From positions 1 through 38,460 of the forward strand of contig CAZSWH010000002.1 in NCBI GenBank assembly GCA_964611235.1: a stretch of DNA of 38,460 bases, written 5' to 3'. The notes below the pieces were generated by a model. That model was not told the DNA's origin. It searched no databases and saw nothing but the letters and a program-made list of their open reading frames with translations. A program made the position numbers and the translations under genes. Positions 13,513 to 33,974 of the stretch are shown one piece after another. This DNA is from Candidatus Woesearchaeota archaeon (GTDB lineage: Archaea > Nanobdellota > Nanobdellia > Pacearchaeales > GW2011-AR1). The stretch's first letter is position 1. Each line of letters begins with the position of its first letter.

Positions 13513-13570
13513 AACAAGGAAAGAAAATGTTAGTTTAAATTTATTTCTATAAGATAAAAAAATAAAAGAA

Positions 13571-13811: not shown

Positions 13812-13812
13812 T

Positions 13813-14154
13813 TTAAATTATACATGTTTTTAATCTTTGTTCAATTTTTCTTATTTCAGTGATATTTTGGATGGCAATTGATACTATTTGATGAAGGAGT
13901 AAATTTCTATCTACTTGTTTGTTGTTTTTTTCTGTGAATGCGAATACTAAGAAAGTGGCGGTTCTTTTGTTTCCATCAGAGAACGGGTGGTCAACAAGTA
14001 TCGCTCTCAATAAATATGCAATTTTTTTATACTTACCTAATTTTTTATTATTTTGCATTTCAATTGCGAAATCTAAACTAGAATCACTTCTTAAATTCCC
14101 TCCAAAACCCCGATTTATTCTAAGTAAATCTTCCTTACTAATATCCATACACAC
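13813..14154 (-). CDS. doc: Doc (death-on-curing) / Fic-family toxin
   Basis: VDHPFSDGNKRTATFLVF matches the Doc variant of the Fic motif, HxFx(D/N)(A/G)NKR. 113 aa. Confidence 0.8.
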   Translation of the reverse strand: MCMDISKEDLLRINRGFGGNLRSDSSLDFAIEMQNNKKLGKYKKIAYLLRAILVDHPFSDGNKRTATFLVFAFTEKNNKQVDRNLLLHQIVSIAIQNITEIRKIEQRLKTCII

Positions 14155-16809: not shown

Positions 16810-17163
16810 ATGGCACAGAAGAAAACTAAGGTCCGTTATGTTGATATTAATGTCAGCAAGAAGAATTTTGTTTCAAAGTTAATTGGCTCTGAAAAATCTT
16901 ATGACTTTTCTGATATAAAAATTCTTAGAGGTTTGTTAAGCAATGAAAAGGCAAAAATTCTTTATGTTTTAAAACACGAAAAATCTAAATCAATTTACGA
17001 ACTCGCTAAAAAACTTGGAAGGGATTTTAAATCTGTCAGAGACGACCTAAAGGCGCTTGAGAGGGTTGGTTTTATAGATTTTGTCCTTGAAAAAAAAGGC
17101 CGGAGAGAGTCTTTGATGCCAGTCCTTTCAGTAGATAGTATCAAGATTATAATAAATATTTAA
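16810..17163 (+). CDS. Winged helix-turn-helix transcriptional regulator
   Basis: KAKILYVLKHEKSKSIYELAKKLGRDFKSVRDDLKALERVGFIDF is a typical ArsR/MarR-like wHTH segment. 117 aa. Confidence 0.6.
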   Translation: MAQKKTKVRYVDINVSKKNFVSKLIGSEKSYDFSDIKILRGLLSNEKAKILYVLKHEKSKSIYELAKKLGRDFKSVRDDLKALERVGFIDFVLEKKGRRESLMPVLSVDSIKIIINI

Positions 17164-17660
17164 TTGCAAATTGTCATTCTCACGATAAGAGTTTGAGAAT
17201 CCTTAAAGATGTTTCTTTGTGCTCCAGAGATTTGTCCGCTACAATTTCCCCATTTTATCTCAATTATTCCAGCACCTTCTTTTTCAAAAAGCTCAAATTT
17301 ATAGTAATTTATTGTCGCTTCGCTTTTTATTAAATTGTCTAAAACTTCTCTTAAACTATCATTAAGATATTTGCATGCCTCCTTGTTAAGATTACGGCAG
17401 ACCTCATTTTTGTAACAGCTTCCGAATAATTCTCTATAATCTTCAAAGTCCGGCTCAAAAACAAGAGCACATTCTGTCGTTGTTCTCATTATTGAATCCA
17501 ACATATTCCCTACCTGAACACTATTCCCTTCTGCCGGTGATTCTTTAAAAGAAATGACAAGATAAACCATAAGCCCGACCACGACAAGCACGACTATAAG
17601 AACAAAACCAACTATTTCCTGCTGTGCTTTTTTACTTGAAGATATTTTTAATTTATTCAT
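17160..17660 (-). CDS. Prepilin-like (class III signal peptide-like) protein, unknown function
   Basis: N-terminus MNKLKISSSKKAQQEIVGFVLIVVLVVVGLMVYLVI (basic residues, KAQ, then a hydrophobic helix) and a Cys-containing ectodomain. Overlaps the upstream gene by 8 nt. Confidence 0.5.
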   Translation of the reverse strand: MNKLKISSSKKAQQEIVGFVLIVVLVVVGLMVYLVISFKESPAEGNSVQVGNMLDSIMRTTTECALVFEPDFEDYRELFGSCYKNEVCRNLNKEACKYLNDSLREVLDNLIKSEATINYYKFELFEKEGAGIIEIKWGNCSGQISGAQRNIFKDSQTLIVRMTICN

Positions 17661-18285
17661 TGGTTTTTACTCCTACAACTAATTTTCCGATTTCACATTT
17701 GTCATAAACATAACTGAATTCTTTTATTTTCCTGCAGATTGAGACATATGTGGAATATTCCTTAACATTTTTTTGTCCGCTGTTGTAAATCTCATAATAA
17801 TTGCAGTTTAAAGAAGGGCATTTTATGATTTCTCCTGCAGGGTAAATTTTGTAAACTTTTATTGAACTCACTGGCCAGAATGTTTCATAATATTTTCCAA
17901 AGTTCCCTAAAAGAATTCTTAATTTATCTTCGTCAAGAACGAGCGTTTCACTCGAATCAAAGTTTATTTCTGCCATGTCTGAGATTACTTTTAGTGAAGA
18001 AACTGCAGATTCCTCTTGGAGCAACATTGCTTTCTGCCTCAGACCTCTAAATTCAATTGACAAAAAAAATAATCCTACTAATATAAAAAATAAAAAAACT
18101 GCAAGAATCATAAAAGCCATCTGCTGAATTTTCATCTGTGCTTTGTTATTTTTTAGTATAGCTAAACTATTATAATTTTTTCTACTTGCGAGAAATTTCT
18201 TTTTTTCGACAAAGAAGAAAAACATGAACCGACTTGTTCGATGCTTTTTTTCTAAAAAAGAAAGAGCTCTTACCATAATCTGCAA
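17653..18285 (-). CDS. Prepilin-like or signal-anchored protein, start uncertain (M1 18285, M21 18225 or M51 18135)
   Basis: ...LKNNKAQMKIQQMAFMILAVFLFFILVGLFFLSI. The 19-bp repeat at 18181-18199 lies inside the longest reading frame, which argues for a later start. Confidence 0.45.
   Translation of the reverse strand: MQIMVRALSFLEKKHRTSRFMFFFFVEKKKFLASRKNYNSLAILKNNKAQMKIQQMAFMILAVFLFFILVGLFFLSIEFRGLRQKAMLLQEESAVSSLKVISDMAEINFDSSETLVLDEDKLRILLGNFGKYYETFWPVSSIKVYKIYPAGEIIKCPSLNCNYYEIYNSGQKNVKEYSTYVSICRKIKEFSYVYDKCEIGKLVVGVKTNE
18181..18199. repeat. 19-bp inverted-repeat partner B (tctacttgcgagaaatttc)
   Basis: Exact reverse complement of 19804-19822. Contains the near-palindrome gagaaatttct. 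Confidence 0.8.
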
Positions 18286-19256
18286 AGTTCTCCTGCGTTT
18301 AGTCTGTTTAATTTTTTAGATATTTGATTAAGTAAGATTATATTCTCTGAAGTTGCATTTTCAGTTAATCCTTTCCATATAAGAAGGTCTGGCTTGAGAT
18401 TTGTGTTGCAGTCTCTTGCATTTATTAGGTCTGCTTTTTCGCTTAGAAGTTCAGCAATTTTTCCAGTTCTTTGAAGCAGTCGCTCAACATTACATTCGTA
18501 AATATTCGGTTCTGAAAATATTGCAGCGTATATCAGGTTCCCTTTGTATTTCATTGTTCCCTCTTTTTTTTCCACAGTTCCCTCTTCATAAATTGAATTA
18601 CAATCAGTCATACACACACCATAAACCATTATATCACAATTATTCCCCTTCCCGAAACAGACTACTGTATCAGAATCAGAACAGTTGCTAATTTTAATAT
18701 TGGGAATTCTTAGTCCTATAATTTCTTCTGAGATATATTCAGGAGGATTTAATAAACAGTAATCTTCTGACATTAAAAAAATCATATCGTTTACTTTGTA
18801 AGGAAATTCAAATGGCTTGGAAAAAACATAAAAGTCCTTTCCTTCGTTTTTTTCTTTTGAGAATATGTATTTATTATGGACTGAGATTGCTCCTCCGGAT
18901 TTTCCCCATTCTTTTACAATGCCTGATTTTGTTGAGATAGATATGTCGTTTTTTCCGAAGTCTTCTTTGAAACAAATATTATTTATCCTTGTTTCTTCTC
19001 TAAAAGAAATTTTTCCGTAACTTCCTTCGGCGAAACTTGCTTGCATAGGGTCTGTGAGGATTGCCAGAGTTTTTGCAATTTCTGTGTCGCTTTGAAATTT
19101 CTTAGTCTCTCCAAATTTTACAGAACCGTATATAGCTAAAAATAAAATTGCCCCGCCAGCTATAATGGCAAAAAGCCAGACAAAACCAAACTCTCCTCTT
19201 TTTTTCCGAGCCAGCAATGGAAACATGGAACTTTGAAAAAAGTTTCTTTTTTTCAT
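18270..19256 (-). CDS. Prepilin-like protein, unknown function
   Basis: N-terminus ...LLARKKRGEFGFVWLFAIIAGGAILFLAIYG and a 280-aa Cys-containing ectodomain. Confidence 0.5.
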   Translation of the reverse strand: MKKRNFFQSSMFPLLARKKRGEFGFVWLFAIIAGGAILFLAIYGSVKFGETKKFQSDTEIAKTLAILTDPMQASFAEGSYGKISFREETRINNICFKEDFGKNDISISTKSGIVKEWGKSGGAISVHNKYIFSKEKNEGKDFYVFSKPFEFPYKVNDMIFLMSEDYCLLNPPEYISEEIIGLRIPNIKISNCSDSDTVVCFGKGNNCDIMVYGVCMTDCNSIYEEGTVEKKEGTMKYKGNLIYAAIFSEPNIYECNVERLLQRTGKIAELLSEKADLINARDCNTNLKPDLLIWKGLTENATSENIILLNQISKKLNRLNAGELCRLW

Positions 19257-19290
19257 TAAATTTAAAGGACAATTCTTTTTTTAAACTCTT

Positions 19291-19779
19291 TTATTCAATC
19301 TTGACCAATTTATCATAGAAATCTTTTTTTATTTTCAGATTATTTGAAACAAGGACACAGTAAGGATTTTTGCTTTCAGTAATTTTTGTAATGTTAATGT
19401 AATTTATATTTTTCCATTGCATATTTTCTGCGTTTTCTGGGGGAAGCAAAAAAGTGTTGGCTTCATAGATGTCATAATTTTTTATCATTTCATAATCTTC
19501 AAAGTTGGAGGTTATCTTTGCAGAGAGGTTAGCAAAACATACTTTTTCTATTTTGTTTGGGAGGTTAATTTTAAATTCAAACTCGCTTGACTGGGAATTC
19601 CTTGCTTTGTTAACTTCTGTTTGTAAGTCCTGATAGAACATCCCGACTTTAGAAGCATTTCCGATGTCAAGAAAGTTAGATATTGCAATGAAAGCTACTA
19701 CAACGAACACGACGATTAGAAATATTGCGAAAATAACCCCGAAGGGCATACCCATAGTTTCTTGTGCTCTTTTGTTCAT
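19291..19779 (-). CDS. Prepilin-like protein, unknown function
   Basis: N-terminus MNKRAQETMGMPFGVIFAIFLIVVFVVVAFIAI. Confidence 0.5.
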   Translation of the reverse strand: MNKRAQETMGMPFGVIFAIFLIVVFVVVAFIAISNFLDIGNASKVGMFYQDLQTEVNKARNSQSSEFEFKINLPNKIEKVCFANLSAKITSNFEDYEMIKNYDIYEANTFLLPPENAENMQWKNINYINITKITESKNPYCVLVSNNLKIKKDFYDKLVKIE

Positions 19780-19803
19780 AGGTTTCTTTCTCTTTAGAAA
19801 AGA

Positions 19804-19822
19804 GAAATTTCTCGCAAGTAGA
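19804..19822. repeat. 19-bp inverted-repeat partner A (gaaatttctcgcaagtaga)
   Basis: Exact reverse complement of 18181-18199. Embedded in the perfect palindrome gagaaatttctc and located 25-43 nt upstream of the ATG at 19779. Confidence 0.8.
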
Positions 19823-19896
19823 GAAACTTTTGTTCCAAAACTGCGTTTTGATTTATTATATACAATTAAGTAAGTAAGGTTATATAAAATTATTTA

Positions 19897-22125
19897 TTAG
19901 GCCCCAAAAAGATTTTCACCCAGGCGGACAATTGCTGAGCAGTCTGCGTCTTCGTTTTTGAATTCATCTCTGCATTTTATATAATATGTTTTGTCTTTGT
20001 TCCATTCTGCTATGTGATTTGTAGAATTTGCATAAGGCATTTCAGTTCCTTCTTCAAATGTGAAATCGCAGTTTGCGAAGTTGTAAGCACATTCACTTTC
20101 TTTGACTGTTACTATTTTGAGCAGACCTTCTTCTTCATAAATTCTAGCGATTACTGGTGCGCTTGTATCTATATCTAAAATGAATTCTATTGTGTCGCGT
20201 GCGATGTTTCCCCCTTCATCTATACATTCAATGTAATACTTGTGGCTTCCAGGACCTAAACTTTGTTTCTGGGTGCTTACTCCATCTTCATTGTTTGTGT
20301 CATAAAACATTATGAAATCTCCTTCGTTTCCTGTAGTTGAGTAATCGCATATTGATAATCCATTATTGCATCCGAAAAGTGTCTGAACATATAATTCAAT
20401 AGGTGCTGGATTTACCGCTCCAAATACTGTCCCATTAGGGAGCAGTTTGCTTATTTTTAGTGCTGTGCTTCCTCTTAAATTGAATACAAAACTTTCTCTA
20501 TTTCTGTTTCTGTCATTTACTTCTGAATTTGGTTGGTCTTCACATCTAATATAATATTTTGTCCCTTCTCTTGAAATTCCTGTAAGAGCTGTTTTGCAAG
20601 TGAAGAGTTGGTTTGCATTTATCTGATATAATTCGTTTGAACAAATCATTTGGTTCTGCATATTTTCGTAACTTTGGTCATCAAAACTCCATCTGCAGTT
20701 TGCTGGTTCATTTGTGTAAACTTCAACATTGACAGAATCTTGGTTTTCTGCTACGCATCCACTGTTCATTATTGAGGTCGCTTTTATCAGAGGAGCTGTT
20801 GTGTCAGGGCTTGGGTCAATGCACATTTTGACGGCATATTCTGCTGTATTCTCATTTCCATTTTTGTCCTTGCATCTTATAAAGAATGTTATATCTTTTC
20901 CATTTTCTAATATTAAACCAGAGCCCTCAAGAGTTTCTGCTCCTGGAAGAGAGAATTGTTCTGTGTGGTTGTATAAATATAAATTGCTTCCGCCTATGAA
21001 GGAAGTCATTTCGTCAAAATTTGTTGTGTGGTTGAAATCAATCTTACATTGTGCTGGCTCATCTATGGTGATGCCAAATTTTAGAGGAGTGAATGCTTTA
21101 AGGCACCCGTCTGAACTTTCAAGATTTATTATTTCAAATCCTGGTCCAGGGGGCGATGTTCTGACATTTGTGTATTTGTGTCCTTCTGTTATTACATTGT
21201 AATTAGGGGAGATTACAGGGGGGTTTACATCCCGAGGATTTATATTGACGCATTTTTCCTGTGTTGTTCCTTTATTTACAAGTTCACAATTCTGCCCTAA
21301 ACTTCTGCATCTATATTCAGAACAAGGCAAGGTATCATAATTACATATTTCACAATCGTTTCCCCCAGACGGCGCTTGCCAAGTCAAACAATCAAAGGTT
21401 ACAATTTCTGTGTCTGTTTTTCTGTACATAAGAATAAGGATGAATACTCCGATTCCGATTCCAAAGAGAGGGTTAGCAAGTATTTTATTCGCAGCAGTTA
21501 CATCCCATGTAGAGAAAAAATTATAAGAACCAAATCCTGCAGCCATTGCAGTTGCAAGTGCCTGTGTATTTTGCTTGCTCATTCCGAATAAACTTCCAAG
21601 CATATAGCCAACACCATAAGCAAAAAGCGCCCACTGAGCTCCTGTTGCAAGTGCGTCTAAACCTCCTCCTGTAGGAAGGCGAAGGAATTTTGAGAGAGTT
21701 GAAGAGCCTGGTTTTGCTTCAAGGGTTCCTGAGCTTAAGAAATTTCCTTCCTCCCCTTTTTGAATGATATATGGTGTCCCATCTTTAGTAACTATTTTAA
21801 TTGTTCCATCAGCTAATTGAGAAGCAGATTTTATGTTAGTTGTTTGGAGAGTGATAGGATTTGAGCCATATAATTTAGTGTTTATTGGGGTAAAACTAAT
21901 GGTTTTTGCAGCACCGGTATTTACATATAATGGAATATTTCTTGTAGCAGAAGTGCCCCCATTAGTTAAAGCATTTGCACTGCTGACTTTTATCGGATCA
22001 GTTCCACTAACAAAAGGGGTACTCAACCCAACTAAAAACGAGAAAGCAATTATAGAAATCATTAGATTTAGAATTATAAAATAAACTTTCAAACTTTCTC
22101 TTTTTATTCCCTCTTTTTTTATCAT
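19897..22125 (-). CDS. Large membrane protein: Gly-rich hydrophobic region plus Cys-rich, repeat-containing C-terminal ectodomain (paralog of the C-terminal half of 25822-29502)
   Basis: VTFDCLTWQAPSGGNDCEICNYDTLPCSEYRCRSLGQNCELVNKGT aligns with VTFECKPWQPPTGGSDCEKCNGDPLKPCSEYRCQNLGAACELVNKGT of the 1226-aa protein. Four colinear C-terminal modules end in YYI(K/R/E)C. Confidence 0.6.
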   Translation of the reverse strand: MIKKEGIKRESLKVYFIILNLMISIIAFSFLVGLSTPFVSGTDPIKVSSANALTNGGTSATRNIPLYVNTGAAKTISFTPINTKLYGSNPITLQTTNIKSASQLADGTIKIVTKDGTPYIIQKGEEGNFLSSGTLEAKPGSSTLSKFLRLPTGGGLDALATGAQWALFAYGVGYMLGSLFGMSKQNTQALATAMAAGFGSYNFFSTWDVTAANKILANPLFGIGIGVFILILMYRKTDTEIVTFDCLTWQAPSGGNDCEICNYDTLPCSEYRCRSLGQNCELVNKGTTQEKCVNINPRDVNPPVISPNYNVITEGHKYTNVRTSPPGPGFEIINLESSDGCLKAFTPLKFGITIDEPAQCKIDFNHTTNFDEMTSFIGGSNLYLYNHTEQFSLPGAETLEGSGLILENGKDITFFIRCKDKNGNENTAEYAVKMCIDPSPDTTAPLIKATSIMNSGCVAENQDSVNVEVYTNEPANCRWSFDDQSYENMQNQMICSNELYQINANQLFTCKTALTGISREGTKYYIRCEDQPNSEVNDRNRNRESFVFNLRGSTALKISKLLPNGTVFGAVNPAPIELYVQTLFGCNNGLSICDYSTTGNEGDFIMFYDTNNEDGVSTQKQSLGPGSHKYYIECIDEGGNIARDTIEFILDIDTSAPVIARIYEEEGLLKIVTVKESECAYNFANCDFTFEEGTEMPYANSTNHIAEWNKDKTYYIKCRDEFKNEDADCSAIVRLGENLFGA

Positions 22126-22146
22126 ATTACCTATTTTTTGAGCCTA

Positions 22147-22830
22147 TTACTCTGCTCTTGCACCAGTAACAACTATTGTATCTCCTTTCTTTAACGGTTC
22201 TCCTTTAATTTCTATATTATAATATCTCAAAAGTTCTTCTAAGTTCCAAAAAGATAATAAAATTTCATTTTGCTGGTTAAACAAATTACAATTATATCTT
22301 TTTTTTGCAATTTCAATTTTTATAGGATTTCCATTAAGAGTTTCTATTATTTTATAACCTCCCTCAGGAAAATCTCCTTCTATCATTTTAGTAATTAAAA
22401 AATTTGTAGTAAAATAATTAAATCTTGTTTTACTGTTAGGATGTGTTGTTCTTCCTATAAGTTCTTCTGCCCTATCTTTAAATGTTCTTCCATAAACTTC
22501 TCCTATATCTTCTTTTTCATTTCTGTCTAAATTGTAAATTTCTGTTGAATATATTTGAGGAGTTGGTATGTTTGAAGAACTTTGACTTTCATTATTTTCA
22601 CTATTTCCAGTATTACTTGGTTCTTGCACATTTACATAGGTAGTGCTTCCTCTCGGTCCTTCAATTTCATTTCTAATTGTGCTGTCAATCGCACTAACTG
22701 TTGTTTGTTGCCATGCTGCTGTCACGAGAGAATCTGCAAGTTGTTCATTGCATCCTGAACCAACTAAACTTGCAAGTCCGATTAAACTTGCTCCTGCGTA
22801 ATTCCTGATTTTTTGTTTTAAGTTTTCCAT
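22147..22830 (-). CDS. Putative lipoprotein, unknown function
   Basis: Lipobox-like LASLVGSGC after a signal sequence, then a Ser/Asn-rich linker and a globular C-terminal domain. Confidence 0.5.
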   Translation of the reverse strand: MENLKQKIRNYAGASLIGLASLVGSGCNEQLADSLVTAAWQQTTVSAIDSTIRNEIEGPRGSTTYVNVQEPSNTGNSENNESQSSSNIPTPQIYSTEIYNLDRNEKEDIGEVYGRTFKDRAEELIGRTTHPNSKTRFNYFTTNFLITKMIEGDFPEGGYKIIETLNGNPIKIEIAKKRYNCNLFNQQNEILLSFWNLEELLRYYNIEIKGEPLKKGDTIVVTGARAE

Positions 22831-22895
22831 ATTATTTCTATGTTTTTTGATATTTAAACCTTTCGTTTTGTAACCTTTATTAAGTGGTGTCTCTT

Positions 22896-24668: not shown

Positions 24669-24744
24669 TAGCAAATCGCAGATTTGATTAGAACTGACTT
24701 GTTCAGTTCACAATCTTTCTTATCTGCCTCCAATATTTTATTTA
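24669..24744 (-). repeat. Leader repeat copy 2: promoter/5' leader hairpin element ending 9 nt before the ATG of 22896-24668
   Basis: 68 of its nt match 1-68 with one mismatch, and it shares cattagcaaatcgcagatttgattagaactgacttgttcagttcacaa with copy 3. Confidence 0.8.
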
Positions 24745-25031
24745 CCACTTTTATATTCCTCTTTAATAAAATATACTATTAAACTTATAATCGTATATAG
24801 AATTATTATTAATCCAAAGAGCAAGACAGAAGCAAGAGCTCCTGCTAAAATTTGCCCTTTTGAATTTAAATTCTCTGTAATAATATTCGGAAGAACGGCT
24901 GATGTATAAATAATCCAAATAAAGAAAGCAAAGATAAGGGTAAGAATCACTTTCCATTTGCCTGGCTTCAAAAATTCAAATATTTCTTTTAACTTTTCTG
25001 GTTTTCCTAATATTCCTTTTTTTGTTATCAT
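24738..25031 (-). CDS. Small membrane protein (2 TM segments)
   Basis: Two hydrophobic helices. The ATG at 25029-25031 forms an ATGA overlap with the stop of the upstream gene (25028-25030), so it is preferred over 25052. Confidence 0.5.
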   Translation of the reverse strand: MITKKGILGKPEKLKEIFEFLKPGKWKVILTLIFAFFIWIIYTSAVLPNIITENLNSKGQILAGALASVLLFGLIIILYTIISLIVYFIKEEYKSGK

Positions 25032-25777
25032 CCGAAATATCCTGCTGGCCACGCAATGCTCCTGCTGGCGAACTGAAATTTATTTTCAAATATTTTGCTA
25101 TTGATTGTGTAAACTGTTGTCCCGTCGTCCATTTTCATTTTTTCAATGTAGTAATCAGGATAAAAGTCATTTATGTAATCCACATCAGAATCCCCATAGG
25201 CAGTTTCAAATTGGAGGAGTGAAGTAGCGAGCATTAAAATATCGTAGAGAGGAGAGTTGACTTCAATATTAAATCTTGAAAATTTCCCGGGGCCGATTGT
25301 GGTAGGGGCATTAATAAAGATTTTTATGATTTCAGGTTCTATTGAAATGTTGTAGTTCAATTTTCCTGGGGTGACATCATAGCCTTCTGCTTTTAATTCT
25401 GAAAGAGAATCTTCATAACAATTGTTTATTTTTTGAGAAACATATTTTTCTAACTGCTCTTCAAAATGCTGTTTTAAAAAAGGTTTTTGGATAGTGCATG
25501 TTTTATAATACTCAGTAGTGTAACAAAGGTAAGTAATTTTCTCGTCTTTGTAAGGATAAGTAAGTTCAGGATTTATGTAGCCTGCATTTTTTTCTAATTC
25601 TTTAACAGATTCTTCTATTGTTTCCCTGACGCATCCTTCAAAACTTAATTTTCCTCCTCTCTCTGAGATATAAGTTGGTCTAAACCATAAAAAGAAAATT
25701 AGAATAATTGAGATAATAACAATCCCTAAAATAATAAATAATGTTACCTGCCCTTTTTTTGCGAACCTCTTTCCCAT
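25028..25777 (-). CDS. Prepilin-like protein, paralog of 29499-30248
   Basis: N-terminus MGKRFAKKGQVTLFIILGIVIISIILIFF. Shared blocks with the paralog: C-V-x-E-x-IE-x-SV, TYLCY..YY..C, PLY, and a C-terminal (A/S)-x-(W/F)P(A/P)G. Confidence 0.55.
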   Translation of the reverse strand: MGKRFAKKGQVTLFIILGIVIISIILIFFLWFRPTYISERGGKLSFEGCVRETIEESVKELEKNAGYINPELTYPYKDEKITYLCYTTEYYKTCTIQKPFLKQHFEEQLEKYVSQKINNCYEDSLSELKAEGYDVTPGKLNYNISIEPEIIKIFINAPTTIGPGKFSRFNIEVNSPLYDILMLATSLLQFETAYGDSDVDYINDFYPDYYIEKMKMDDGTTVYTINSKIFENKFQFASRSIAWPAGYFG

Positions 25778-25821
25778 CTTTATTTTAGTTATTTTCTATT
25801 TATAAATTCTATTATATTGCA

Positions 25822-28800
25822 TTAAGTAGGAGAAATAGTAATGGAGCACCCTGCTGGAAGATTTTCGAACTCGTCCTTGCATTTGATATAATAAATTTGT
25901 CCGCGGAATATTTCTATAGTGTGTTTTTCTCCAAGAGAAGTTGATGTTTCATTATTCCATTTAAATTCGCAGTTGGTTTTAGAATAACTGCACTCTGCTG
26001 GTTCGTTTGTGATAAAATATATTTTTCCTTTTTCCTGCCAAACTCTTGCTATCTGTGGCGATGAACTGTCAATTTCAGATTCTTCCTCCTCTTCCTCCTC
26101 TTCCTCGTAATTTTCTGTTTCATATGAACTGTCAAGTAAGATTTCAAATTCTGCCTTTCCTCTTACGAAGTCACCTGTTTCATCTTTACATTCAATATAA
26201 ATTATGTTTTGTTTTGAAGGGACGCTTAAGCCTGGTTGTTTGTGGATTCTTGCTTCGCCTGTCTCAAAAATTTCTATCATTTTTTCGTAGCCTGACATTG
26301 AGTATGAACAAATATGGTATTCTCCTCCGCCTGAAGTTCTTACCTGAATTTCTATTGTAGTGAATTCTGTTGAGGTTCTGAAATCCTCATTTGGGGCAAT
26401 CCAATCTATTGTGATTTTGCTTTCAGGTTTTCTCAGTGTATATAGTGTGCTTTGCGTGTTGGCGTTTCTTTCGTTGCTTCGGTTTAATTCTTCAAGCCAT
26501 GGCTGGTCTTTGCATCTTATATAGTATTTGTTTTCAATGGATGTTATCGATAGGGTTGTTTCGCAGGAATATCCTTGTGTTGATGATGGCGATTCAAACC
26601 CATCTTCACAAATCATTTTATTGTTCATCATAGAGTAATCTTTGTCTGAGGTGTCCCATTTACAAGTAGATAGTTCGTTTGTTATTACTTTGATTTTTTC
26701 TTCTGTTGAATTGAAACTGATTAATCTATTGTCTTCAGGTTCTATTGCACGGATTCTTGGGGCGGTTTTGTCCGGTCCTTGATTGACGCACATATCTATT
26801 GTATAAAAGTTCTGAGTCTCGTGTCCGTTAGTGTCTTGGCATTTTACATAAAGAGTCAATTCTCCAGACCAATCAACTCCGTGGCTCTCTCCGTGGCTCG
26901 GGTCAGGAAGCGTGAAAAACATTGTGTGGTTATATCCAAAAAGATTTGAGCCGAAGTCAAAGTTCATTTCAGAGAAGTCTTTCATTTCTAAGTCAAATCT
27001 GCATTGCGCTGGTTCGTCTGTTGTGATTCCAAATAAGATATCAGTGTAAGCGTCAAGGCATTCTCCTTGAGTAGAGGAAATTTTGAATCCTTTGTCAGAT
27101 ATGCTACTGTATTTTTTATTTTCAGAGATTACTCCATATTGTGGTTGGAGCTTTGGAGGGATTACATCATTTGGGTTTTTGTGGACACATAGTTCGTTGT
27201 TTGTTCCTTTGTTTACTAATTCGCAGGCAGCACCTAAATTTTGGCATCTGTATTCAGAGCAGGGCTTTAGCGGGTCGCCATTACATTTTTCACAATCGCT
27301 TCCTCCTGTCGGCGGTTGCCATGGTTTGCATTCAAATGTAACTGTTTTTGGGTCGCAGTCAGAACCTCCGAAGAATAAAGAGATGATTGTAAGAATGATT
27401 CCTATAATCATAAGAGGAGCAAATAAGGCTCCTAATTCGATAATACCTAAAACCTGAGTCATTGCTGATCCAACCATACTCCCACCAACAGCCATTAAAA
27501 TTGAACCAATAGGAGCGAGCCCAAGGGCTTTGGCTAAATAAGCTCCTGTAAGCATTCCGATGCCTGCTCCAATCGCAGCGCCGGCAAAACCTGCCATATT
27601 AGCAGTAAATCCTGCCCCCACTGGATCAACAAGTGGTGCAGCTATACCAGAAAGCTCTGCAAGAGTTAGACTTCCTGTAGCATAAACTCCTGCAGCATAT
27701 CCTATCCCTAAAAATCCTGCCCCTGTTTTCATAAAATCACTTGTTATATCATAATCTTCTCCATTTTCTCCACCGCTTATAACTCCTGCAGATTTAAGGT
27801 ATTTAGTATAATCTTCAACTTCTGCTCTCTGCCCTGGAATAGGATTTGCTAATTGTTTTAATTTATTTATCCATGAAGAACTTAGCCTTGGGGCTTTTGT
27901 AACTTTATAATTTTCAGTGTATTTTCCTACAATGTTTACTTCGCCTCCACAATCGCCGAGTGACCTGCAAAAGTCGTTCATTTTTTGTGTGAATTCTTCT
28001 GTTAAACAATCTCCATTATATTCTATCTCACATCCTCCAAATAGTTTTGGTTTATAGACAACTGTGCATTTTTGCGTTGCCATTCCACAGATGGCTTTTG
28101 CTGTTTCAGAGTATCTCTGGTCAGTTAAATCAAAACCTGCAGGATATTTTGGAGTGCACACATCAAAACTAAATTTATCTGCTATATTCACTTTTTCTAT
28201 TCTGCAATTTAGAGTTTTTGCACATTTTTCCAAGCCGTCTTCTTCGCTGTTAAGGGAAATACATTCTCTCCAATTGTTTGCTACACAAGAAGATGTTCTA
28301 AATTCAATTTCTTTTCCTTCTATGTCAAAAGTGTTTGATTGAATACAAATCTGGTTTCTATAATCAGCACATGGCTCAACTTGTATTTCTCCATTGTTGC
28401 AGACATATCGCCAGTGTCTTGAGCCGACTATATCATCTCCTCCTCCAATTTTTCCGTCATAAACGCACCAGCTCTCTCCATTCTTGTATGCCTCTCCCTT
28501 GAACATACAGGAAGTTGGTTTGCAGTAGAAATTTCCTGAATTAACGTTGAAGTTATTTGCCCCAGCAGAAGAACATATTCCCCCTAAAAATCTATTGCAG
28601 TTTCCACAGGTTTTGCTGTTGGCATTTCCATCTTTATTACTCGCTCCGCAACTTTCTTCCAGCGGGGCGATTTTTTCCCAGTAATTTTGGTCATTCATTT
28701 TTGAGCTGTCATAAATATTGGCTATGTTACCACAAGAATCCAAGAAATAAACTCCATCTTTTCCATCAATACAGGCTGTTTGAGTTGTTTTTTCACAGGA

Positions 28801-29502
28801 AGTGTTAAGTTCTTTTGAGGTGCATAAATATCCTTCATTAAATTCCCCTTTATAATTTAGGCAACTTTTTTCTGTTATTAATTTACATTCTCCTCCGCCA
28901 AGAACGCACGCTCCTTCTTTTTGGGTTGATGAAAGTAATATGCATTGAAGTTCGTTTAAGTCTGATTTCCATTCCAGTTCTAACCCTCTCCACGAACTTT
29001 CTGTCTGGCATTGTCCTTGTGTTACGAATAGTGAGATACTCCCCAAGACACAGCATCCTTTTTTTGCTCCAGGGAGATTGCAGTTTGGGTCAGAGTTCCA
29101 ACTTGCAGTGCAGTCAGCTCTTAAAACATTGTTGTCATAAATTCCTTTTTTTTCATTATAACAACAGCCTTTTACACAAAAGGAGGTGCTTGAGCAGAGT
29201 GCTCCTTCAGCGAATTGTCCTGCGCAGTATTCTTCAGTTGAAGTCGCACATTTTTCACTATTTTTATTGATTGAACAACATCCAATTTGTTGTGCTGAAA
29301 CGACCTGGAAAAGGGGTGTTCTAATTTTTTTGTATATCCCTATTAATGCTTTTTCAATTAAGTTGTTTTTTTTGGGGTTTATTCCAAAGTAGTCTTCGTT
29401 GAATAGATTTCTTGAAGAATAGAGGATATAGGAAAAAGCGAAAGTTGAACTTATAATTAATATTAATTCAAAATAAGTGATGATTATCTTTTTTGTTTTC
29501 AT
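25822..29502 (-). CDS. Giant (1226 aa) cysteine-rich membrane protein: N-terminal Cys-rich ectodomain, Gly-zipper hydrophobic region, C-terminal repeat ectodomain
   Basis: Equals the 590-aa type plus the 742-aa type in one chain (alignments given for those two features). The ATG at 29500-29502 forms an ATGA overlap with the upstream stop. Includes a poly-Glu linker (EEEEEEEE). Confidence 0.65.
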   Translation of the reverse strand: MKTKKIIITYFELILIISSTFAFSYILYSSRNLFNEDYFGINPKKNNLIEKALIGIYKKIRTPLFQVVSAQQIGCCSINKNSEKCATSTEEYCAGQFAEGALCSSTSFCVKGCCYNEKKGIYDNNVLRADCTASWNSDPNCNLPGAKKGCCVLGSISLFVTQGQCQTESSWRGLELEWKSDLNELQCILLSSTQKEGACVLGGGECKLITEKSCLNYKGEFNEGYLCTSKELNTSCEKTTQTACIDGKDGVYFLDSCGNIANIYDSSKMNDQNYWEKIAPLEESCGASNKDGNANSKTCGNCNRFLGGICSSAGANNFNVNSGNFYCKPTSCMFKGEAYKNGESWCVYDGKIGGGDDIVGSRHWRYVCNNGEIQVEPCADYRNQICIQSNTFDIEGKEIEFRTSSCVANNWRECISLNSEEDGLEKCAKTLNCRIEKVNIADKFSFDVCTPKYPAGFDLTDQRYSETAKAICGMATQKCTVVYKPKLFGGCEIEYNGDCLTEEFTQKMNDFCRSLGDCGGEVNIVGKYTENYKVTKAPRLSSSWINKLKQLANPIPGQRAEVEDYTKYLKSAGVISGGENGEDYDITSDFMKTGAGFLGIGYAAGVYATGSLTLAELSGIAAPLVDPVGAGFTANMAGFAGAAIGAGIGMLTGAYLAKALGLAPIGSILMAVGGSMVGSAMTQVLGIIELGALFAPLMIIGIILTIISLFFGGSDCDPKTVTFECKPWQPPTGGSDCEKCNGDPLKPCSEYRCQNLGAACELVNKGTNNELCVHKNPNDVIPPKLQPQYGVISENKKYSSISDKGFKISSTQGECLDAYTDILFGITTDEPAQCRFDLEMKDFSEMNFDFGSNLFGYNHTMFFTLPDPSHGESHGVDWSGELTLYVKCQDTNGHETQNFYTIDMCVNQGPDKTAPRIRAIEPEDNRLISFNSTEEKIKVITNELSTCKWDTSDKDYSMMNNKMICEDGFESPSSTQGYSCETTLSITSIENKYYIRCKDQPWLEELNRSNERNANTQSTLYTLRKPESKITIDWIAPNEDFRTSTEFTTIEIQVRTSGGGEYHICSYSMSGYEKMIEIFETGEARIHKQPGLSVPSKQNIIYIECKDETGDFVRGKAEFEILLDSSYETENYEEEEEEEEESEIDSSSPQIARVWQEKGKIYFITNEPAECSYSKTNCEFKWNNETSTSLGEKHTIEIFRGQIYYIKCKDEFENLPAGCSITISPT

Positions 29503-30248
29503 ATTCCTGGAGGAAACGCGCAACTCCGAATTGCAAATTTAAATTCTTTTCCAGTCTTCTTATCTACCACTTTGTAAATTTTACTGCCATCGAAGTCGAT
29601 TCTCCATATTTTATATTCTGGGTGGAGGAGCATATAACTGTTATATTCGAAATAGCAATATTGTGATTCGCTGTTGGTAATCTCTCTTGCTATATTAATT
29701 AATTCATAAAGAGGGAACAATAAATCAAAGCTGAAATCTTCAAAATTCTGGGAACTTTCGTCTTTTAATATCTGAACTTTCTTTTTTACATCCACTCTTA
29801 TTTTTCCAGGAAGTAAAATAATTGAAAGATTTGTAGCACCCCCACTGACCTCAAGACCCTCTCCTTCATAATCTTCTTTCATTCTGTTGAAACAATCTTG
29901 AACTTCATTTTTAATATCCTCTTTTATTTCATACTCTATTTTTTCCTGAAGTATTGGGTAAAGATTATAACAAGAAAGGTAATAGTCCCCTTGATAACAA
30001 AGATAAGTGTAATATTCTCCGTCGTATAAAATTTTTTGTTGTTGTTGGAGTCCTCCCCCATTTTTTAATATAATATCAACTGACTTTTCTATCGATTCTT
30101 TTACACATTTCTGAATGTAACTTTTGGGGTTGGTGATTATTGGTTTCTCATCTTTAATTTTGTTTGAAAGAAGAAAGAAAAGAATAATGACTATAAATAT
30201 TAATATTCCAAGGATAATAAAAATCGTGACCTGTCCTTTATTTTTCAT
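29499..30248 (-). CDS. Prepilin-like protein, first gene of the locus
   Basis: N-terminus MKNKGQVTIFIILGILIFIVIILFF (KGQ followed by a hydrophobic helix). The ATG at 30246-30248 is preferred over the TTG at 30254. Confidence 0.55.
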   Translation of the reverse strand: MKNKGQVTIFIILGILIFIVIILFFLLSNKIKDEKPIITNPKSYIQKCVKESIEKSVDIILKNGGGLQQQQKILYDGEYYTYLCYQGDYYLSCYNLYPILQEKIEYEIKEDIKNEVQDCFNRMKEDYEGEGLEVSGGATNLSIILLPGKIRVDVKKKVQILKDESSQNFEDFSFDLLFPLYELINIAREITNSESQYCYFEYNSYMLLHPEYKIWRIDFDGSKIYKVVDKKTGKEFKFAIRSCAFPPGI

Positions 30249-30329
30249 TAGCAAATCGCAGATTTGATTAGAACTGACTTGTTCAGTTCACAACCTTCCC
30301 TTCACTGCCTTCAGGATTTTATTTTTCAT
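30249..30329 (-). repeat. Leader repeat copy 3 (more diverged distal half)
   Basis: The proximal 48 nt (including the ATG) are identical to copy 2. The distal part is diverged, with one indel, but keeps the hairpin core. Confidence 0.75.
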
Positions 30330-30474
30330 TTTCCTCTCTAAAAAGCAAATCTATTGCAGCTTCGATAACATGGGATTTATTTCTAAAATTTCTCTTTTTA
30401 GTAATTTCTTTTATTTTCTGAATAGTTTCTTTTTCTACACTGGCGGAAATTCTTTTTTTTGTAATTGTGAGAAT
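30319..30474 (-). CDS. Possible ribbon-helix-helix (CopG-like) DNA-binding protein; no canonical start codon found
   Basis: Minus-strand frame reads ..ITKKRISASVEKETIQKIKEITKKRNFRNKSHVIEAAIDLLFREENEK* with a typical RHH strand-helix-helix pattern. The open frame after the stop at 30484-30486 contains only ATA/ATT/TTA-type codons, so the start is unresolved. Confidence 0.3.
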   Translation of the reverse strand: MLTITKKRISASVEKETIQKIKEITKKRNFRNKSHVIEAAIDLLFREENEK

Positions 30475-33943: not shown

Positions 33944-33974
33944 AGTAAATTATGTAAGTAATAATTAATAAATC

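What the first reader, a model, noticed from the sequence alone, without database searches (positions are those of the whole stretch)
17160..30329. 13-kb single-strand locus of six prepilin-like proteins plus giant Cys-rich membrane proteins: candidate undescribed surface or attachment apparatus
Eleven consecutive minus-strand genes run from 30248 to 17160. Several are translationally coupled, with ATGA overlaps at 29499-29502 and 25028-25031 and an 8-nt overlap at 17653-17660.

Six products begin with basic residues, then [KR][GA][QE], then about 20 hydrophobic residues:
- MKNKGQVTIFIILG
- KKGQVTLFIILG
- NKRAQETMGMPFGVIFAIF
- KKRGEFGFVWLFAII
- NNKAQMKIQQMAFMIL
- SKKAQQEIVGFVLIVV

This is the pattern of archaeal class III (type IV prepilin-like) signal peptides. 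Interleaved with them are a lipoprotein, a 2-TM protein and three very large proteins (590, 742 and 1226 aa). These large proteins have dozens of cysteines, a glycine-zipper membrane region and repeated ectodomain modules.

I recognise no catalytic motif in any of them. The window contains no pilus ATPase (PilB/FlaI type), platform protein (PilC/FlaJ type) or prepilin peptidase.

By analogy with bacterial minor pilins plus the large tip adhesin PilY1, this could be a pilus-tip or cell-cell contact complex. That would fit a host-dependent small-genome archaeon. The function is inference only.
Basis: partly seen in the sequence, partly recalled or inferred. Interest (0 to 1): 0.85.

Follow-up and report, generated by a model that had tools for sequence, protein, structure and literature searches.

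The report
Pilin-like surface operon in Pacearchaeota
A 13-kb operon that is conserved across tiny, probably host-dependent archaea (Pacearchaeota/Woesearchaeota) encodes six proteins with pilus-subunit-type signal peptides plus giant, disulfide-rich membrane proteins from families nobody has described. It is most likely a cell-surface attachment complex, but no pilus motor was found nearby.

Summary
Eleven co-directional, partly overlapping genes lie at 17160-30254. Six begin with [KR][GA][QE] followed by about 20 hydrophobic residues.

At family level this is a strict motif. Position -1 is G, A or S in 101 of 101 homologues, +1 is Q in 97 of 101, and leaders run from 4 to 74 residues. The site tetrads (KGQV, RAQ., KAQ.) match those listed for the Methanococcus maripaludis Epd pilins, which are substrates of the EppA peptidase. 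In all six reading frames of the window the motif occurs only inside this locus.

The locus is an ancient duplication. G1+G2 is paralogous to G3+G5+G7, and G2 is a fusion of a G5-like half and a G7-like half.

The giant proteins have:
- an N-terminal anchor
- a roughly 500-residue Cys-rich ectodomain
- a four-helix glycine-zipper membrane bundle
- four Ig-like repeats

None of the 11 proteins has a significant Pfam, NCBIfam or PDB match. The gene order, including a wHTH regulator and the S-layer gene, is kept in about 35 related contigs down to roughly 30% identity.

Against the pilus reading:
- no ATPase, platform protein or peptidase was found in 88 related loci
- the G1 model has no pilin-like fold match
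- the giant proteins are polytopic, unlike PilY1

Verdict: a new variant of a type IV pilin-like surface system. The function is inferred.

The parts
29499..30248 (-). G1: 249-aa pilin-like adaptor. It has a class III-like N-terminus (MKNKG|QVTIFIILG) and an alpha/beta ectodomain with conserved Cys, ending in RSCAFPPGI.
   Evidence: ORF. The family has 168 hits, all hypothetical. Q at +1 is invariant and -1 is G, A or S. The AF2 model has pLDDT 90 and no PDB fold match. The gene overlaps G2 by ATGA.
25822..29502 (-). G2: 1226-aa giant protein. From N to C: an N-terminal anchor helix, a Cys-rich ectodomain of about 500 aa, a Gly-zipper 4-TM bundle (about residues 600-720), a small Cys-rich module, and four Ig-like repeats.
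   Evidence: 681 homologues, none with a Pfam domain. About 75 invariant Cys among 63 sequences. The AF2 model of homologue P0005 has pLDDT 80.8. Foldseek returns Ig/FN3 arrays only. Repeats and Gly-zipper. G2 is a fusion of a G5-like and a G7-like half.
25028..25777 (-). G3: 249-aa paralogue of G1 (KKG|QVTLFIILG). It is the adaptor of the split module.
   Evidence: 29% identical to G1, E = 2e-28. Orthologues are 47-68% identical in related loci and always directly precede the G5-like gene.
24738..25031 (-). G4: optional 97-aa 2-TM protein.
   Evidence: TM segments. It is present in only some relatives, and its internal KGQ is not conserved. It has a weak DUF4013 hit (E = 0.0012).
22896..24668 (-). 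G5: 590-aa Cys-rich ectodomain protein (41 Cys), homologous to the N-terminal half of G2. In some relatives it is fused to the G7-like protein.
   Evidence: Fused 1308-1386-aa versions occur in L005, L006 and L008.
22147..22830 (-). G6: 227-aa lipoprotein-like protein. It is variable and optional.
   Evidence: It carries a signal followed by Cys (LVGSGC). Weak or relocated orthologues occur in L004, L005 and L028.
19897..22125 (-). G7: 742-aa protein homologous to the C-terminal half of G2. It has an anchor, a Gly-zipper TM bundle and four Ig-like repeats.
   Evidence: 36% identical to G2 over 631 columns, E = 1e-105. Repeats. Orthologues are 37-71% identical in most related loci of 8 kb or more.
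19291..19779 (-). G8: 162-aa small pilin-like protein (NKRA|QETMGMPFGVIFAIF).
   Evidence: The orthologue N-termini follow the consensus [KR][GA]Q[QE]TMGMPFG; about 30 distinct N-termini were extracted, with two departures.
18270..19256 (-). G9: 328-aa pilin-like protein (KKRG|EFGFVWLFAII) with a Cys-rich globular domain.
   Evidence: 258 homologues, 55-60% identical. The family consensus is [KR][GAS]QFNFVWLFAI and leaders run 4-26 aa.
17653..18285 (-). G10: small pilin-like protein (NNKA|QMKIQQMAFMIL). Its start codon is uncertain.
   Evidence: Orthologues begin MVRAQMKIQQ or MVKKSAQMKIQQ. The window has no nearby ATG.
17160..17660 (-). G11: 166-aa small pilin-like protein (SKKA|QQEIVGFVLIVV).
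   Evidence: 819 representative clusters. Q at +1, E at +3 and G at +6 are invariant. The N-terminal helix is far better conserved than the rest (0.68 against 0.42).
16810..17163 (+). Conserved wHTH regulator (PF25212 HVO_A0114 family). It is convergent with G11 and divergent from the S-layer gene. It is a candidate regulator of the locus.
   Evidence: Pfam E = 3.6e-17. It holds this position in most related loci of 8 kb or more that include G11, at 41-71% identity.
14238..16364 (-). S-layer protein (708 aa). It is the invariant neighbour of the locus.
   Evidence: PF05124 S_layer_C above the Pfam cut-off. Neighbour annotation. Synteny.
18181..18199 (-). 19-bp partly palindromic motif GAAATTTCTCGCAAGTAGA upstream of G10. 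It may be an operator.
   Evidence: An exact second copy lies at 19804-19822 (+), upstream of G8. Chance expectation is 0. The arms extend to 56 nt.
19804..19822 (+). Second copy of the 19-bp motif, in inverted orientation, 25 nt upstream of the G8 ATG.

Best explanation
The locus encodes a lineage-wide cell-surface complex of Pacearchaeales/Woesearchaeales built on type IV pilin-like subunits.

**Proposed mechanism (steps 1-5 are inferred; only the sequence features behind them are shown).**
1. G1, G3 and G8-G11 are made with EppA-type class III signal peptides ([KR][GA]|Q...).
2. An A24 prepilin peptidase encoded elsewhere in the genome cuts them at the cytoplasmic face. This leaves a conserved hydrophobic N-terminal helix.
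3. The four small proteins G8-G11 form one tight operon and act like a minor-pilin set. They would nucleate or cap a short pilus or pseudopilus-like helix bundle.
4. G1 and G3 are adaptors. Each is translationally coupled to, and co-duplicated with, its own giant protein: G2, or the split pair G5+G7.
5. The giant proteins stay anchored in the membrane by a glycine-zipper four-helix bundle. They project a disulfide-knotted domain of about 500 residues and four Ig-like domains through or along the S-layer, where they bind another cell or surface.

**Shown:** the motif and its conservation, the paralogy, the predicted architecture and the synteny.
**Inferred:** the cleavage, the co-assembly, the adaptor role and the adhesion target.
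For: - The motif occurs only in this locus in six-frame scans of the window.
- Across the three aligned families, -1 is G, A or S in 101 of 101 sequences, +1 is Q in 97 of 101, -2 is mostly K or R, and leaders run from 4 to 74 aa. The G8 family follows the same consensus in most orthologues.
- Two other membrane-anchored families in the same genomes (X184, X221) lack the small residue at -1.
- The tetrads KGQV, RAQ. and KAQ. equal the processing sites listed for M. maripaludis EpdA-E. EppA requires Q at +1 (PMC4371748, PMC3875500).
- In the G9 and G11 families the N-terminal helix is the best-conserved part of the protein. The only similarity between the G1 and G9 profiles is a weak alignment of the N-termini. 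Both are typical of pilins.
- G8-G11 stay together even in rearranged loci.
- Every giant unit is preceded by its own G1/G3-type gene, in one to three copies.
- The C-terminal halves match arrays of Ig/FN3 adhesion domains.
- About 75 invariant Cys indicate an extracellular, disulfide-bonded protein.
- Published archaeal T4P loci typically combine five or more minor pilins, large adhesin-like proteins, S-layer-like proteins and conserved cysteines, and pilin genes are often unlinked from the motor genes (PMC4858521).
- FlaI/J/K or ArlHIJ genes are reported in Woesearchaeota and in DPANN cluster 2 (PMC8407392, PMC13473441).
- Pacearchaeota appear strongly host-attached (bioRxiv 10.1101/2020.05.14.094862).
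Against: - No secretion ATPase, TadC/ArlJ platform protein or A24 peptidase was found in the window or in 790 kb of 88 related loci. This rests on motif scans and on Pfam labels of neighbours.
- One paper states that T4P components are missing in DPANN (bioRxiv 10.1101/2020.05.14.094862).
- The E at +5 typical of EppA substrates is absent. E is at +3 in G11 and +2 in G8, and there is none in G1, G3 or G10.
- No Pfam pilin model is matched, apart from 2 of 42 G11-family members with a weak Pilin_N hit at E = 0.02.
- The G1 model shows a TM helix, a low-confidence linker and an alpha/beta domain with no pilin or other PDB fold match (best E = 0.01, TM-score 0.15).
- No small major-pilin candidate exists in the window.
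- Sequence conservation is high for a host-recognition adhesin (G9 is 55-60% identical across many lineages).
- Polytopic giant proteins cannot be extracted into a filament.
Confidence: 0.45

Rival explanations
1. S-layer-associated envelope scaffold. The N-termini are uncleaved signal anchors. The conserved [GA]Q and helix residues serve TM-TM packing. The complex forms membrane-anchored pillars that tether or space the S-layer, whose protein lacks a TM anchor of its own, or that organise the pseudo-periplasm. In this reading it is a housekeeping structure, not a pilus or an adhesin.
For: - The locus is adjacent to the S-layer gene and a wHTH regulator in essentially every related contig long enough to show it, down to about 30% identity.
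- The S-layer protein has a Sec-type signal and no C-terminal TM segment.
- Sequence conservation is high, which suits a core structural role.
- No pilus machinery lies nearby.
- The giant proteins are integral membrane proteins with stalk-like Ig arrays.
- The G1 fold is not pilin-like.
Against: - A strictly small residue at -1, Q at +1 and a variable basic leader across five unrelated globular families is the signature of a processing site, not of helix packing. Control anchors in the same genomes lack it.
- PCNA, primase and ribosomal protein genes are also syntenic with the locus. Gene order in these small genomes is generally stable, so adjacency to the S-layer gene is weak evidence of function.
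- Six different anchor subunits plus duplicated modules is elaborate for a tether.
Confidence: 0.3
2. Intercellular conduit or membrane-active apparatus. The glycine-zipper bundles of the giant proteins oligomerise into a pore, in the archaeon's own membrane or inserted into the host's. The Cys-rich and Ig-like ectodomains dock to the host. The pilin-like proteins form a piston or needle, as in a type II secretion pseudopilus or a competence pilus. The system would move lipids, metabolites or DNA between host and symbiont.
For: - There is a 130-residue Gly/Ala-rich four-helix region with 14 small-xxx-small-xxx-small motifs. NCBI names one homologue 'glycine zipper family protein'.
- The set of four small pilin-like proteins resembles the minor pseudopilin sets of T2SS and Com systems (background knowledge; PMC3875500 discussion).
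- Pacearchaeota have minimal metabolism and appear tightly host-attached (bioRxiv 10.1101/2020.05.14.094862).
Against: - No homology or fold match to any channel, fusogen, secretin or translocon. The AopB hit at E = 0.55 is noise.
- No ATPase is nearby.
- Glycine zippers also occur in ordinary tightly packed TM bundles.
- The TM region is modelled with only moderate confidence, and the preceding linker is disordered.
Confidence: 0.12
3. No functional unit. The eleven genes are unrelated hypothetical membrane proteins that merely sit together, and the shared N-terminal motif reflects AT-rich codon bias (K, N and Q are abundant).
For: - The genome has about 32% GC.
- K-rich N-termini are common here.
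- One further KGQ before a TM segment, in G4, is a chance occurrence.
Against: - The motif is absent from all other ORFs and frames of the window and is invariant across hundreds of divergent homologues.
- The operon structure has overlapping stop and start codons.
- Adaptor and giant genes are co-duplicated.
- The order is kept in about 35 contigs.
Confidence: 0.03

Closest known systems
Epd (EppA-dependent) type IV-like pilus system of Methanococcus maripaludis, called TFF 'system 1' (PMC3875500, PMC4371748, bioRxiv 10.64898/2026.04.22.720090)
   Same: - The signal peptides have [KR][GA] at -2/-1 and Q at +1, and the tetrads are identical (KGQV, RAQx).
- There are several minor-pilin-like genes in an operon.
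- Pilin genes can be unlinked from the motor genes.
- System 1 is reported in some DPANN archaea.
   Different: - There is no E at +5.
- No DUF361 or Pilin_N Pfam match.
- No EpdJ/K/L (platform and ATPase) or EppA gene in the neighbourhood.
- The globular domains are unrelated to known families and rich in Cys.
- There are giant polytopic partner proteins with no Epd counterpart.
Bacterial minor pilins plus the PilY1 tip adhesin, and the archaeal DUF2341 'PilY-like' proteins of TFF subsystems 1 and 4A/B (PMC4858521)
   Same: A set of about four small pilin-like proteins is encoded next to very large surface proteins that look like adhesins.
   Different: - PilY1 is a soluble beta-propeller protein carried at the pilus tip.
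- G2, G5 and G7 have no propeller or DUF2341 domain, carry five TM helices, and contain Ig-like arrays.
- Here each large protein has its own dedicated 250-aa pilin-like partner.
Thermoproteales T4P loci of clades 4E/4G (PMC4858521)
   Same: They combine diverse small minor pilins, two large proteins (S-layer-like or adhesin-like) and extra membrane proteins. Nearly all components carry conserved cysteines.
   Different: - Those loci include the ATPase and TadC genes.
- No sequence similarity was detected.
- They belong to a different phylum.
Modular type IV pilins with grafted adhesin domains (for example Streptococcus sanguinis PilB, PMC8179133), and Ig/FN3-array adhesins such as GhpA grappling-hook protein fragments (PDB 9flw and others)
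   Same: - A pilin-type N-terminus is joined to large functional ectodomains.
- The C-terminal halves of G2 and G7 match Ig/FN3 arrays structurally (E = 1e-12 to 1e-8).
   Different: - The matches are generic Ig-fold similarity (TM-score 0.1-0.4, 8-15% identity).
- The N-terminus of the window's G2 (KKIIITYFEL) lacks a small residue at -1.
- Internal TM helices are present.

Membership tests
Archaeal class III (type IV prepilin-like) signal peptide proteins, EppA-type | A short, positively charged leader ending in [KR] and then a small residue (G or A) at -1. | tested here: met
   Position -1 is G, A or S in 101 of 101 aligned homologues of G1/G3, G9 and G11. Position -2 is mostly K or R. Leaders run 4-74 aa. 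G8 and G10 orthologues behave the same way.
Archaeal class III (type IV prepilin-like) signal peptide proteins, EppA-type | Glutamine at +1, which EppA requires. | tested here: met
   Q in 97 of 101 sequences and E in the rest. In the window, five of six proteins have Q and G9 has E. The requirement is described in PMC4371748 and PMC3875500.
Archaeal class III (type IV prepilin-like) signal peptide proteins, EppA-type | An uncharged hydrophobic H-domain of about 20 residues directly after the site, conserved better than the rest of the protein. | tested here: met
   Hydropathy and motif scans. Conservation of the first 25 mature residues against the rest is 0.86 vs 0.73 for G9, 0.68 vs 0.42 for G11 and 0.63 vs 0.60 for G1.
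Archaeal class III (type IV prepilin-like) signal peptide proteins, EppA-type | Glutamate at +5. | tested here: not met
   E is invariant at +3 in the G11 family and sits at +2 in the window's G8. G1, G3, G9 and G10 have no acidic residue in the helix, apart from E at +1 in the window's G9. [quoted passage not shown]
Archaeal class III (type IV prepilin-like) signal peptide proteins, EppA-type | A match to curated pilin N-terminal models (Pfam PF04021 Class_III signal/DUF361, PF07790 Pilin_N). | tested here: not met
   None at E <= 1 for the window proteins. Among family members, only 2 of 42 in the G11 family hit Pilin_N, at E = 0.02 and below the cut-off.
Archaeal class III (type IV prepilin-like) signal peptide proteins, EppA-type | Cleavage by an A24-family prepilin peptidase encoded in the same genome. 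| not testable with these tools
   The source contig appears to equal the 38-kb window. No GxGD-type membrane peptidase was found in 88 related loci covering 790 kb. Whole genomes could not be fetched.
Type IV pilin fold | A long N-terminal alpha-helix whose C-terminal half packs against a beta-sheet or beta-sandwich head domain. | tested here: inconclusive
   The G1 model (pLDDT 90) has a TM helix at 4-29, a low-confidence linker at 30-40, and a helix at 41-63 packed in an alpha/beta domain. Foldseek against the PDB gives a best E of 0.01 and TM-score 0.15, with no pilin among the hits.
Type IV filament (TFF) system locus | Co-located secretion ATPase (PilB/ArlI, PF00437) and polytopic platform protein (PilC/TadC/ArlJ). 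| tested here: not met
   Absent from the window and from the flanks fetched (up to 10 kb each side) in 88 related loci, by motif scans and neighbour Pfam labels. The literature gives conflicting accounts of their presence elsewhere in such genomes.
PilY1 / DUF2341 pilus-tip adhesins | A beta-propeller or DUF2341 domain in a soluble, secreted large protein. | tested here: not met
   No Pfam hit. The model shows five TM helices, and the fold matches shown are almost all Ig/FN3-type arrays.
Ig-like / FN3 domain surface adhesins | Tandem beta-sandwich domains of about 100 aa. | tested here: met
   There are four repeats with conserved B- and F-strand Cys. Foldseek gives E = 1e-12 to 1e-8 to PTP-delta, NCAM2, GhpA and phage tail FN3 proteins. 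At sequence level there is only a weak Big_13 hit (E = 0.027). This is a fold class, not a functional family.

The most novel reading that the evidence does not exclude
The locus would encode a previously undescribed surface nanomachine specific to Woesearchaeales/Pacearchaeales. EppA-type pilin-like subunits would scaffold giant, disulfide-knotted proteins that carry a glycine-zipper pore. These proteins would dock onto a host cell and open a conduit to it. That would be the missing molecular basis for attachment and resource transfer in one of the most abundant uncultivated DPANN lineages. It would work either without a canonical type IV pilus motor or by borrowing an archaellum-type ArlHIJ motor.
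Probability: 0.15. Interest if true: 0.9.

Novelty: new variant of a known kind. Interest (0 to 1): 0.6.

Why it matters
Pacearchaeota and Woesearchaeota are abundant, uncultivated archaea with minimal metabolism. They are presumed to live attached to hosts, yet no attachment or transfer machinery has been defined for them.

This locus is present in many related contigs from this group and is strongly conserved. It contains at least seven protein families with no annotation. It also supplies concrete, testable candidates:
- six predicted prepilin-peptidase substrates
- two or three giant adhesin-like membrane proteins
- a linked regulator

If processing and assembly are confirmed, the repertoire of archaeal type IV filament-related systems would extend to a form in which the pilin genes are permanently separated from any motor and paired one-to-one with polytopic giant proteins.

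If instead the proteins turn out to be S-layer anchors, that would address how S-layers of this type, whose protein lacks an anchor of its own, are tethered to the membrane.

Tried and rejected
- **Profile searches.** Pfam and NCBIfam scans of ten of the eleven proteins (G4 had Pfam only), and Pfam scans of every member of the G1, G9 and G11 family alignments, gave nothing above the cut-offs.
- **PDB sequence searches.** Profile searches with the four family alignments gave nothing.
- **Fold search, giant protein.** Searches against the PDB and the viral library returned only generic Ig/FN3 arrays.
- **Fold search, G1.** No match was significant. The top hit, XLF, is not meaningful.
- **Viral or mobile-element origin: rejected.** The locus is fixed between housekeeping genes in every relative examined.
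- **Fusexin or class II fusogen idea.** No fold support among the matches shown.
- **G4 as a hidden mini-pilin (KGQ before its second TM segment): rejected.** The site is not conserved and would face outward.
- **Invertible pilin cassette.** The 19-bp inverted repeat flanking G8 and G9 is partly palindromic, sits in promoter-proximal positions and is absent from relatives. An operator is the more likely reading. Inversion was not supported and was not pursued.
- **Genome-wide search for a prepilin peptidase or ATPase.** This was not possible. Only flanks of 10 kb or less could be fetched, and motif scans of 88 loci were negative.
- **Source contig.** An exact-sequence look-up of the G2 product found no record.
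- **Rfam.** A scan of the window found no known RNA family.

Full report

Yes. One search lists eleven consecutive minus-strand ORFs between 17160 and 30254. I call them:
- G1, 29499-30248
- G2, 25822-29502
- G3, 25028-25777
- G4, 24738-25031
- G5, 22896-24668
- G6, 22147-22830
- G7, 19897-22125
- G8, 19291-19779
- G9, 18270-19256
- G10, 17653-18285
- G11, 17160-17660

The window is AT-rich (about 32% GC). It carries archaeal ribosomal-protein-like ORFs plus PCNA and primase genes. Homologues of the locus proteins come from Pacearchaeota, Woesearchaeota or 'Nanoarchaeota' metagenome-assembled genomes.

A six-frame scan for [KRN][GAS][QE] followed by an uncharged hydrophobic stretch gives seven hits in the whole 38 kb. 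All seven are in this locus: the six quoted proteins plus an internal site in G4. The G4 site is not conserved in orthologues.

**2. Anatomy: the locus is a duplicated module plus a four-gene block**

- G1 and G3 are paralogues (29% identity, E = 2e-28).
- G2 is a fusion of a G5-like N-terminal half (35%, E = 3e-59) and a G7-like C-terminal half (36% over 631 columns, E = 1e-105).
- So [G1-G2] and [G3-(G4)-G5-(G6)-G7] are two ancient copies of the same unit.
- Relatives carry one to three units. Each giant gene is preceded by its own 250-aa G1/G3-type gene.
- G5 and G7 are fused into a single protein of 1308-1386 aa in some genomes.
- G4 (2 TM segments) and G6 (lipoprotein-like) are optional.
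- G8-G11 form a tight block that stays together even where the rest is rearranged.

**3. The N-terminal motif at family level**

I aligned homologues of G1/G3 (35 sequences), G9 (24 sequences) and G11 (42 representatives of 819 clusters).

| Position or feature | Result |
|---|---|
| -1 | G, A or S in 101 of 101 |
| +1 | Q in 97 of 101, E in the other 4 |
| -2 | mostly K or R |
| Leader length | 4 to 74 residues |
| G11 family | Q at +1, E at +3 and G at +6 all invariant |

- In the G9 and G11 families the first 25 mature residues are clearly better conserved than the globular part (0.86 against 0.73 in G9, 0.68 against 0.42 in G11). In the G1 family the difference is marginal (0.63 against 0.60).
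- G8 orthologues follow the consensus [KR][GA]Q[QE]TMGMPFG (about 30 distinct N-termini, two departures).
- G10 orthologues read [RKN][GA]QMKIQQMAF.
- Two other single-pass membrane families from the same genomes (the 184-aa and 221-aa proteins downstream of the S-layer gene) do not have a small residue at -1.
- The G1 and G9 profiles align only weakly, and only over the N-termini (hhalign).

This is the architecture of class III signal peptides. It is specifically the EppA type. The M. maripaludis Epd pilins are listed with sites RAQI, KGQV, KGQV, KGQL and KGQI, and EppA requires Q at +1 (PMC4371748, PMC3875500).

Differences from the EppA type:
- There is no E at +5.
- There is no match to Pfam pilin N-terminal models. 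Only 2 of 42 G11-family members touch Pilin_N, at E = 0.02.

The G10 start is ambiguous in this window because there is no ATG near the motif.

The G2 family also has a pilin-like N-terminus: [KR][KR][IV][IV]A[GS]FE[LM]xLM..FAFSY, and in some members KKAQATFE or KKAGISYFE. The window's own G2 (KKIIITYFEL) lacks the small residue, so I treat this only as a lead.

**4. What the proteins look like**

*Giant proteins.* An AlphaFold2 model was built for a 1162-aa G2 homologue (61-65% identical to G2) with a 63-sequence alignment. Mean pLDDT is 80.8. It shows, in order:
- an N-terminal helix
- a mixed alpha/beta Cys-rich ectodomain (about residues 36-520)
- a disordered Gly-rich linker
- membrane helices in the glycine-zipper region
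- an all-beta C-terminal half

In the window's G2, the Gly/Ala-rich region (about residues 600-720) has room for four TM helices. It contains 14 small-xxx-small-xxx-small motifs. An even number of crossings places both Cys-rich ectodomains outside the cell. This fits the roughly 75 invariant cysteines.

The C-terminal half is four Ig-like repeats of about 110 aa. Each has a conserved B/F-strand cysteine pair. Foldseek matches only tandem Ig/FN3 arrays:
- PTP-delta, NCAM2 and GhpA 'grappling hook' fragments, with E down to 1.7e-12 but low TM-scores and 8-15% identity
- FN3/Ig-containing phage tail proteins in the viral library

*G1.* The model is confident (pLDDT 90.1). It has a TM helix at 4-29, a low-confidence linker, and a compact alpha/beta domain. 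No PDB match is significant (best E = 0.01, TM-score 0.15). So G1 is not recognisably a pilin fold.

*Database matches.* None of the eleven proteins, and none of the four family profiles, matches Pfam, NCBIfam or PDB sequences significantly. Where a source gives a name it is 'hypothetical protein', apart from one 'glycine zipper family protein'.

**5. Conservation and context**

Family sizes:
- G2: 681 hits
- G1: 168 hits
- G9: 258 hits at 55-60% identity
- G11: 819 representative clusters

In eight loci fetched through protein look-ups and a genome scan, and in 80 more from a metagenome scan, about 35 contigs of 8 kb or more keep the same order. That order is G3-G5-G7-G8-G9-G10-G11, then wHTH on the opposite strand, then the S-layer gene. 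It holds down to 28-45% protein identity. It holds even where toxin-antitoxin modules, a FabH gene or a GNAT gene have been inserted.

The wHTH protein belongs to PF25212 (E = 3.6e-17). The 708-aa neighbour carries PF05124 S_layer_C.

PCNA and primase genes upstream, and an archaeosortase-like gene downstream, are also syntenic. Gene order in these genomes is therefore generally stable, and adjacency alone is weak functional evidence.

No PilB/ArlI-type ATPase motif and no GxGD peptidase motif was found in any of the 88 loci (790 kb). None appears among the neighbours' Pfam labels.

The literature disagrees on whether the motor exists in these lineages:
- One study says T4P components are missing in DPANN, and shows that Pacearchaeota are enriched on large size fractions, meaning strong attachment (bioRxiv 10.1101/2020.05.14.094862).
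- Others report FlaI/J/K in Woesearchaeota (PMC8407392).
- Others report FlaIJK in a sister order (PMC8561730).
- ArlHIJ is reported in DPANN cluster 2 (PMC13473441).
- TFF systems 1, 4A and Aap-like are reported in some DPANN (bioRxiv 10.64898/2026.04.22.720090).

**6. Most likely mechanism (confidence about 0.45)**

The best-supported reading is a type IV pilin-like surface complex.
- The six proteins are substrates of an A24 peptidase encoded elsewhere.
- G8-G11 behave as a minor-pilin-like set.
- G1 and G3 are dedicated adaptors of the giant proteins. The support is translational coupling, one-to-one co-duplication and the fact that they always directly precede a giant gene.
- The giant proteins remain membrane-anchored and display a Cys-rich domain and an Ig-like stalk at the surface, plausibly for cell-cell contact.

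What is shown: the motif statistics, the paralogy, the predicted topology and fold class, and the synteny. What is inferred: cleavage, co-assembly, the adaptor role and the binding target.

This arrangement resembles published archaeal T4P accessory gene sets, which combine five or more minor pilins, large adhesin-like and S-layer-like proteins and conserved cysteines, with pilin genes often unlinked from the motor (PMC4858521). It differs in four ways:
- the polytopic giants
- the paired adaptors
- the lack of any nearby motor
- the unrelated globular folds

**7. Rivals**

- (a) An S-layer-associated scaffold made of uncleaved signal anchors (about 0.3). It is favoured by the invariant S-layer adjacency, the high conservation, the non-pilin G1 fold and the missing motor. 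It is disfavoured by the processing-site-like motif that control anchors lack.
- (b) An intercellular conduit formed by the glycine-zipper bundles with a pseudopilus-like piston (about 0.12). It is attractive for a host-dependent organism, but it has no homology or fold support.
- (c) No functional unit (about 0.03). The conservation data contradict it.

**8. Novelty and verdict**

Its interpretation is partly supported: 'prepilin-like' is well supported at the signal-peptide level, the PilY1 analogy is not, and the host-contact role is inference.

I found no description of this locus or of its protein families in the searchable literature.

I rate it a new variant of a known kind, namely archaeal class III signal / type IV filament-related surface systems. 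It contains several entirely unannotated protein families.

Interest is 0.6. The locus gives a concrete, widely conserved candidate for the surface machinery of a major uncultivated lineage. Class III signal proteins of unknown function are common in archaea, however, and the key link (peptidase and motor in the same genomes) could not be tested here.

Noticed in passing
window 24666-24740 (-), 30246-30320 (-), and 1-68 (-): A structured intergenic element of about 75 nt occurs three times on the minus strand. One copy is directly upstream of the G5 ATG, one is directly upstream of the G1 ATG, and one follows the rpl4 stop at the window edge. The core hairpin GAACTGAACAAGTCAGTTC is identical in all three copies. 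The G1 and G5 copies are 95% identical over 61 nt, although the coding regions have diverged to about 30% aa identity. The RNA fold is -19.1 kcal/mol (z = -3.2). There is no Rfam match, and the element is absent from the eight related loci (L001-L008) searched.
   Followed up: partly
window 18181-18199 (-) and 19804-19822 (+); a similar sequence at 30430-30459: An exact 19-bp motif, GAAATTTCTCGCAAGTAGA, occurs in inverted orientation on either side of G8-G9 (arms extend to 56 nt at 77%). The copies lie upstream of G10 and G8, and a related 30-nt sequence lies upstream of G1. The motif is partly palindromic (TTTCT..AGAAA) and may be an operator for the adjacent wHTH regulator. It is not found in relatives.
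   Followed up: partly
window ~30318-30450 (-): There is a ribbon-helix-helix-like reading frame (...KKRISASVEKETIQKIKEITKKRNFRNKSHVIEAAIDLLFREENEK*) between the S19e gene and G1. It has no ATG, GTG or TTG start. It may be a decayed gene or use a non-canonical start.
   Followed up: partly
window 9502-14154: A conserved 'envelope island' lies downstream of the S-layer gene. It contains:
- a Fic/DOC protein (13813-14154)
- two anchored proteins of 184 and 221 aa
- an Sm_multidrug_ex protein
- a 185-aa archaeosortase/exosortase-like protein (weak PF09721 hit)
- a 581-aa surface protein ending in KPGLFRFGG, a TM segment and RRAKE, which looks like an archaeosortase sorting signal

The same neighbours occur in L008.
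   Followed up: partly
window 32687-35765 (-): Two further large surface proteins (418 and 596 aa) share a Cys-rich module (C.E.GG.VC...C.GN...CC..C.E) just before a C-terminal TM segment and a basic tail. Homologous genes sit at the same place in L001.
   Followed up: no
window 16810-17163 (+) vs 17160-17660 (-): The wHTH regulator gene and G11 converge, and their 3' ends overlap by 4 nt. The regulator is more conserved in its identity range (41-71%) than most of its neighbours in all related loci.
   Followed up: no
window 26070-26130 (-) (G2 residues ~1136-1155): There is a poly-glutamate insert (ENYEEEEEEEEESEIDSSS) between the third and fourth Ig-like repeats of G2. It is absent from G7.
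   Followed up: no
L008 7532-13014; L007 1706-2071 and 11808-12161: In relatives the operon is interrupted by selfish or accessory genes without losing its order. These are Polbeta/HepT and ParE/MazE toxin-antitoxin pairs, a GNAT acetyltransferase, a FabH-like gene and 23S_rRNA_IVP genes.
   Followed up: no
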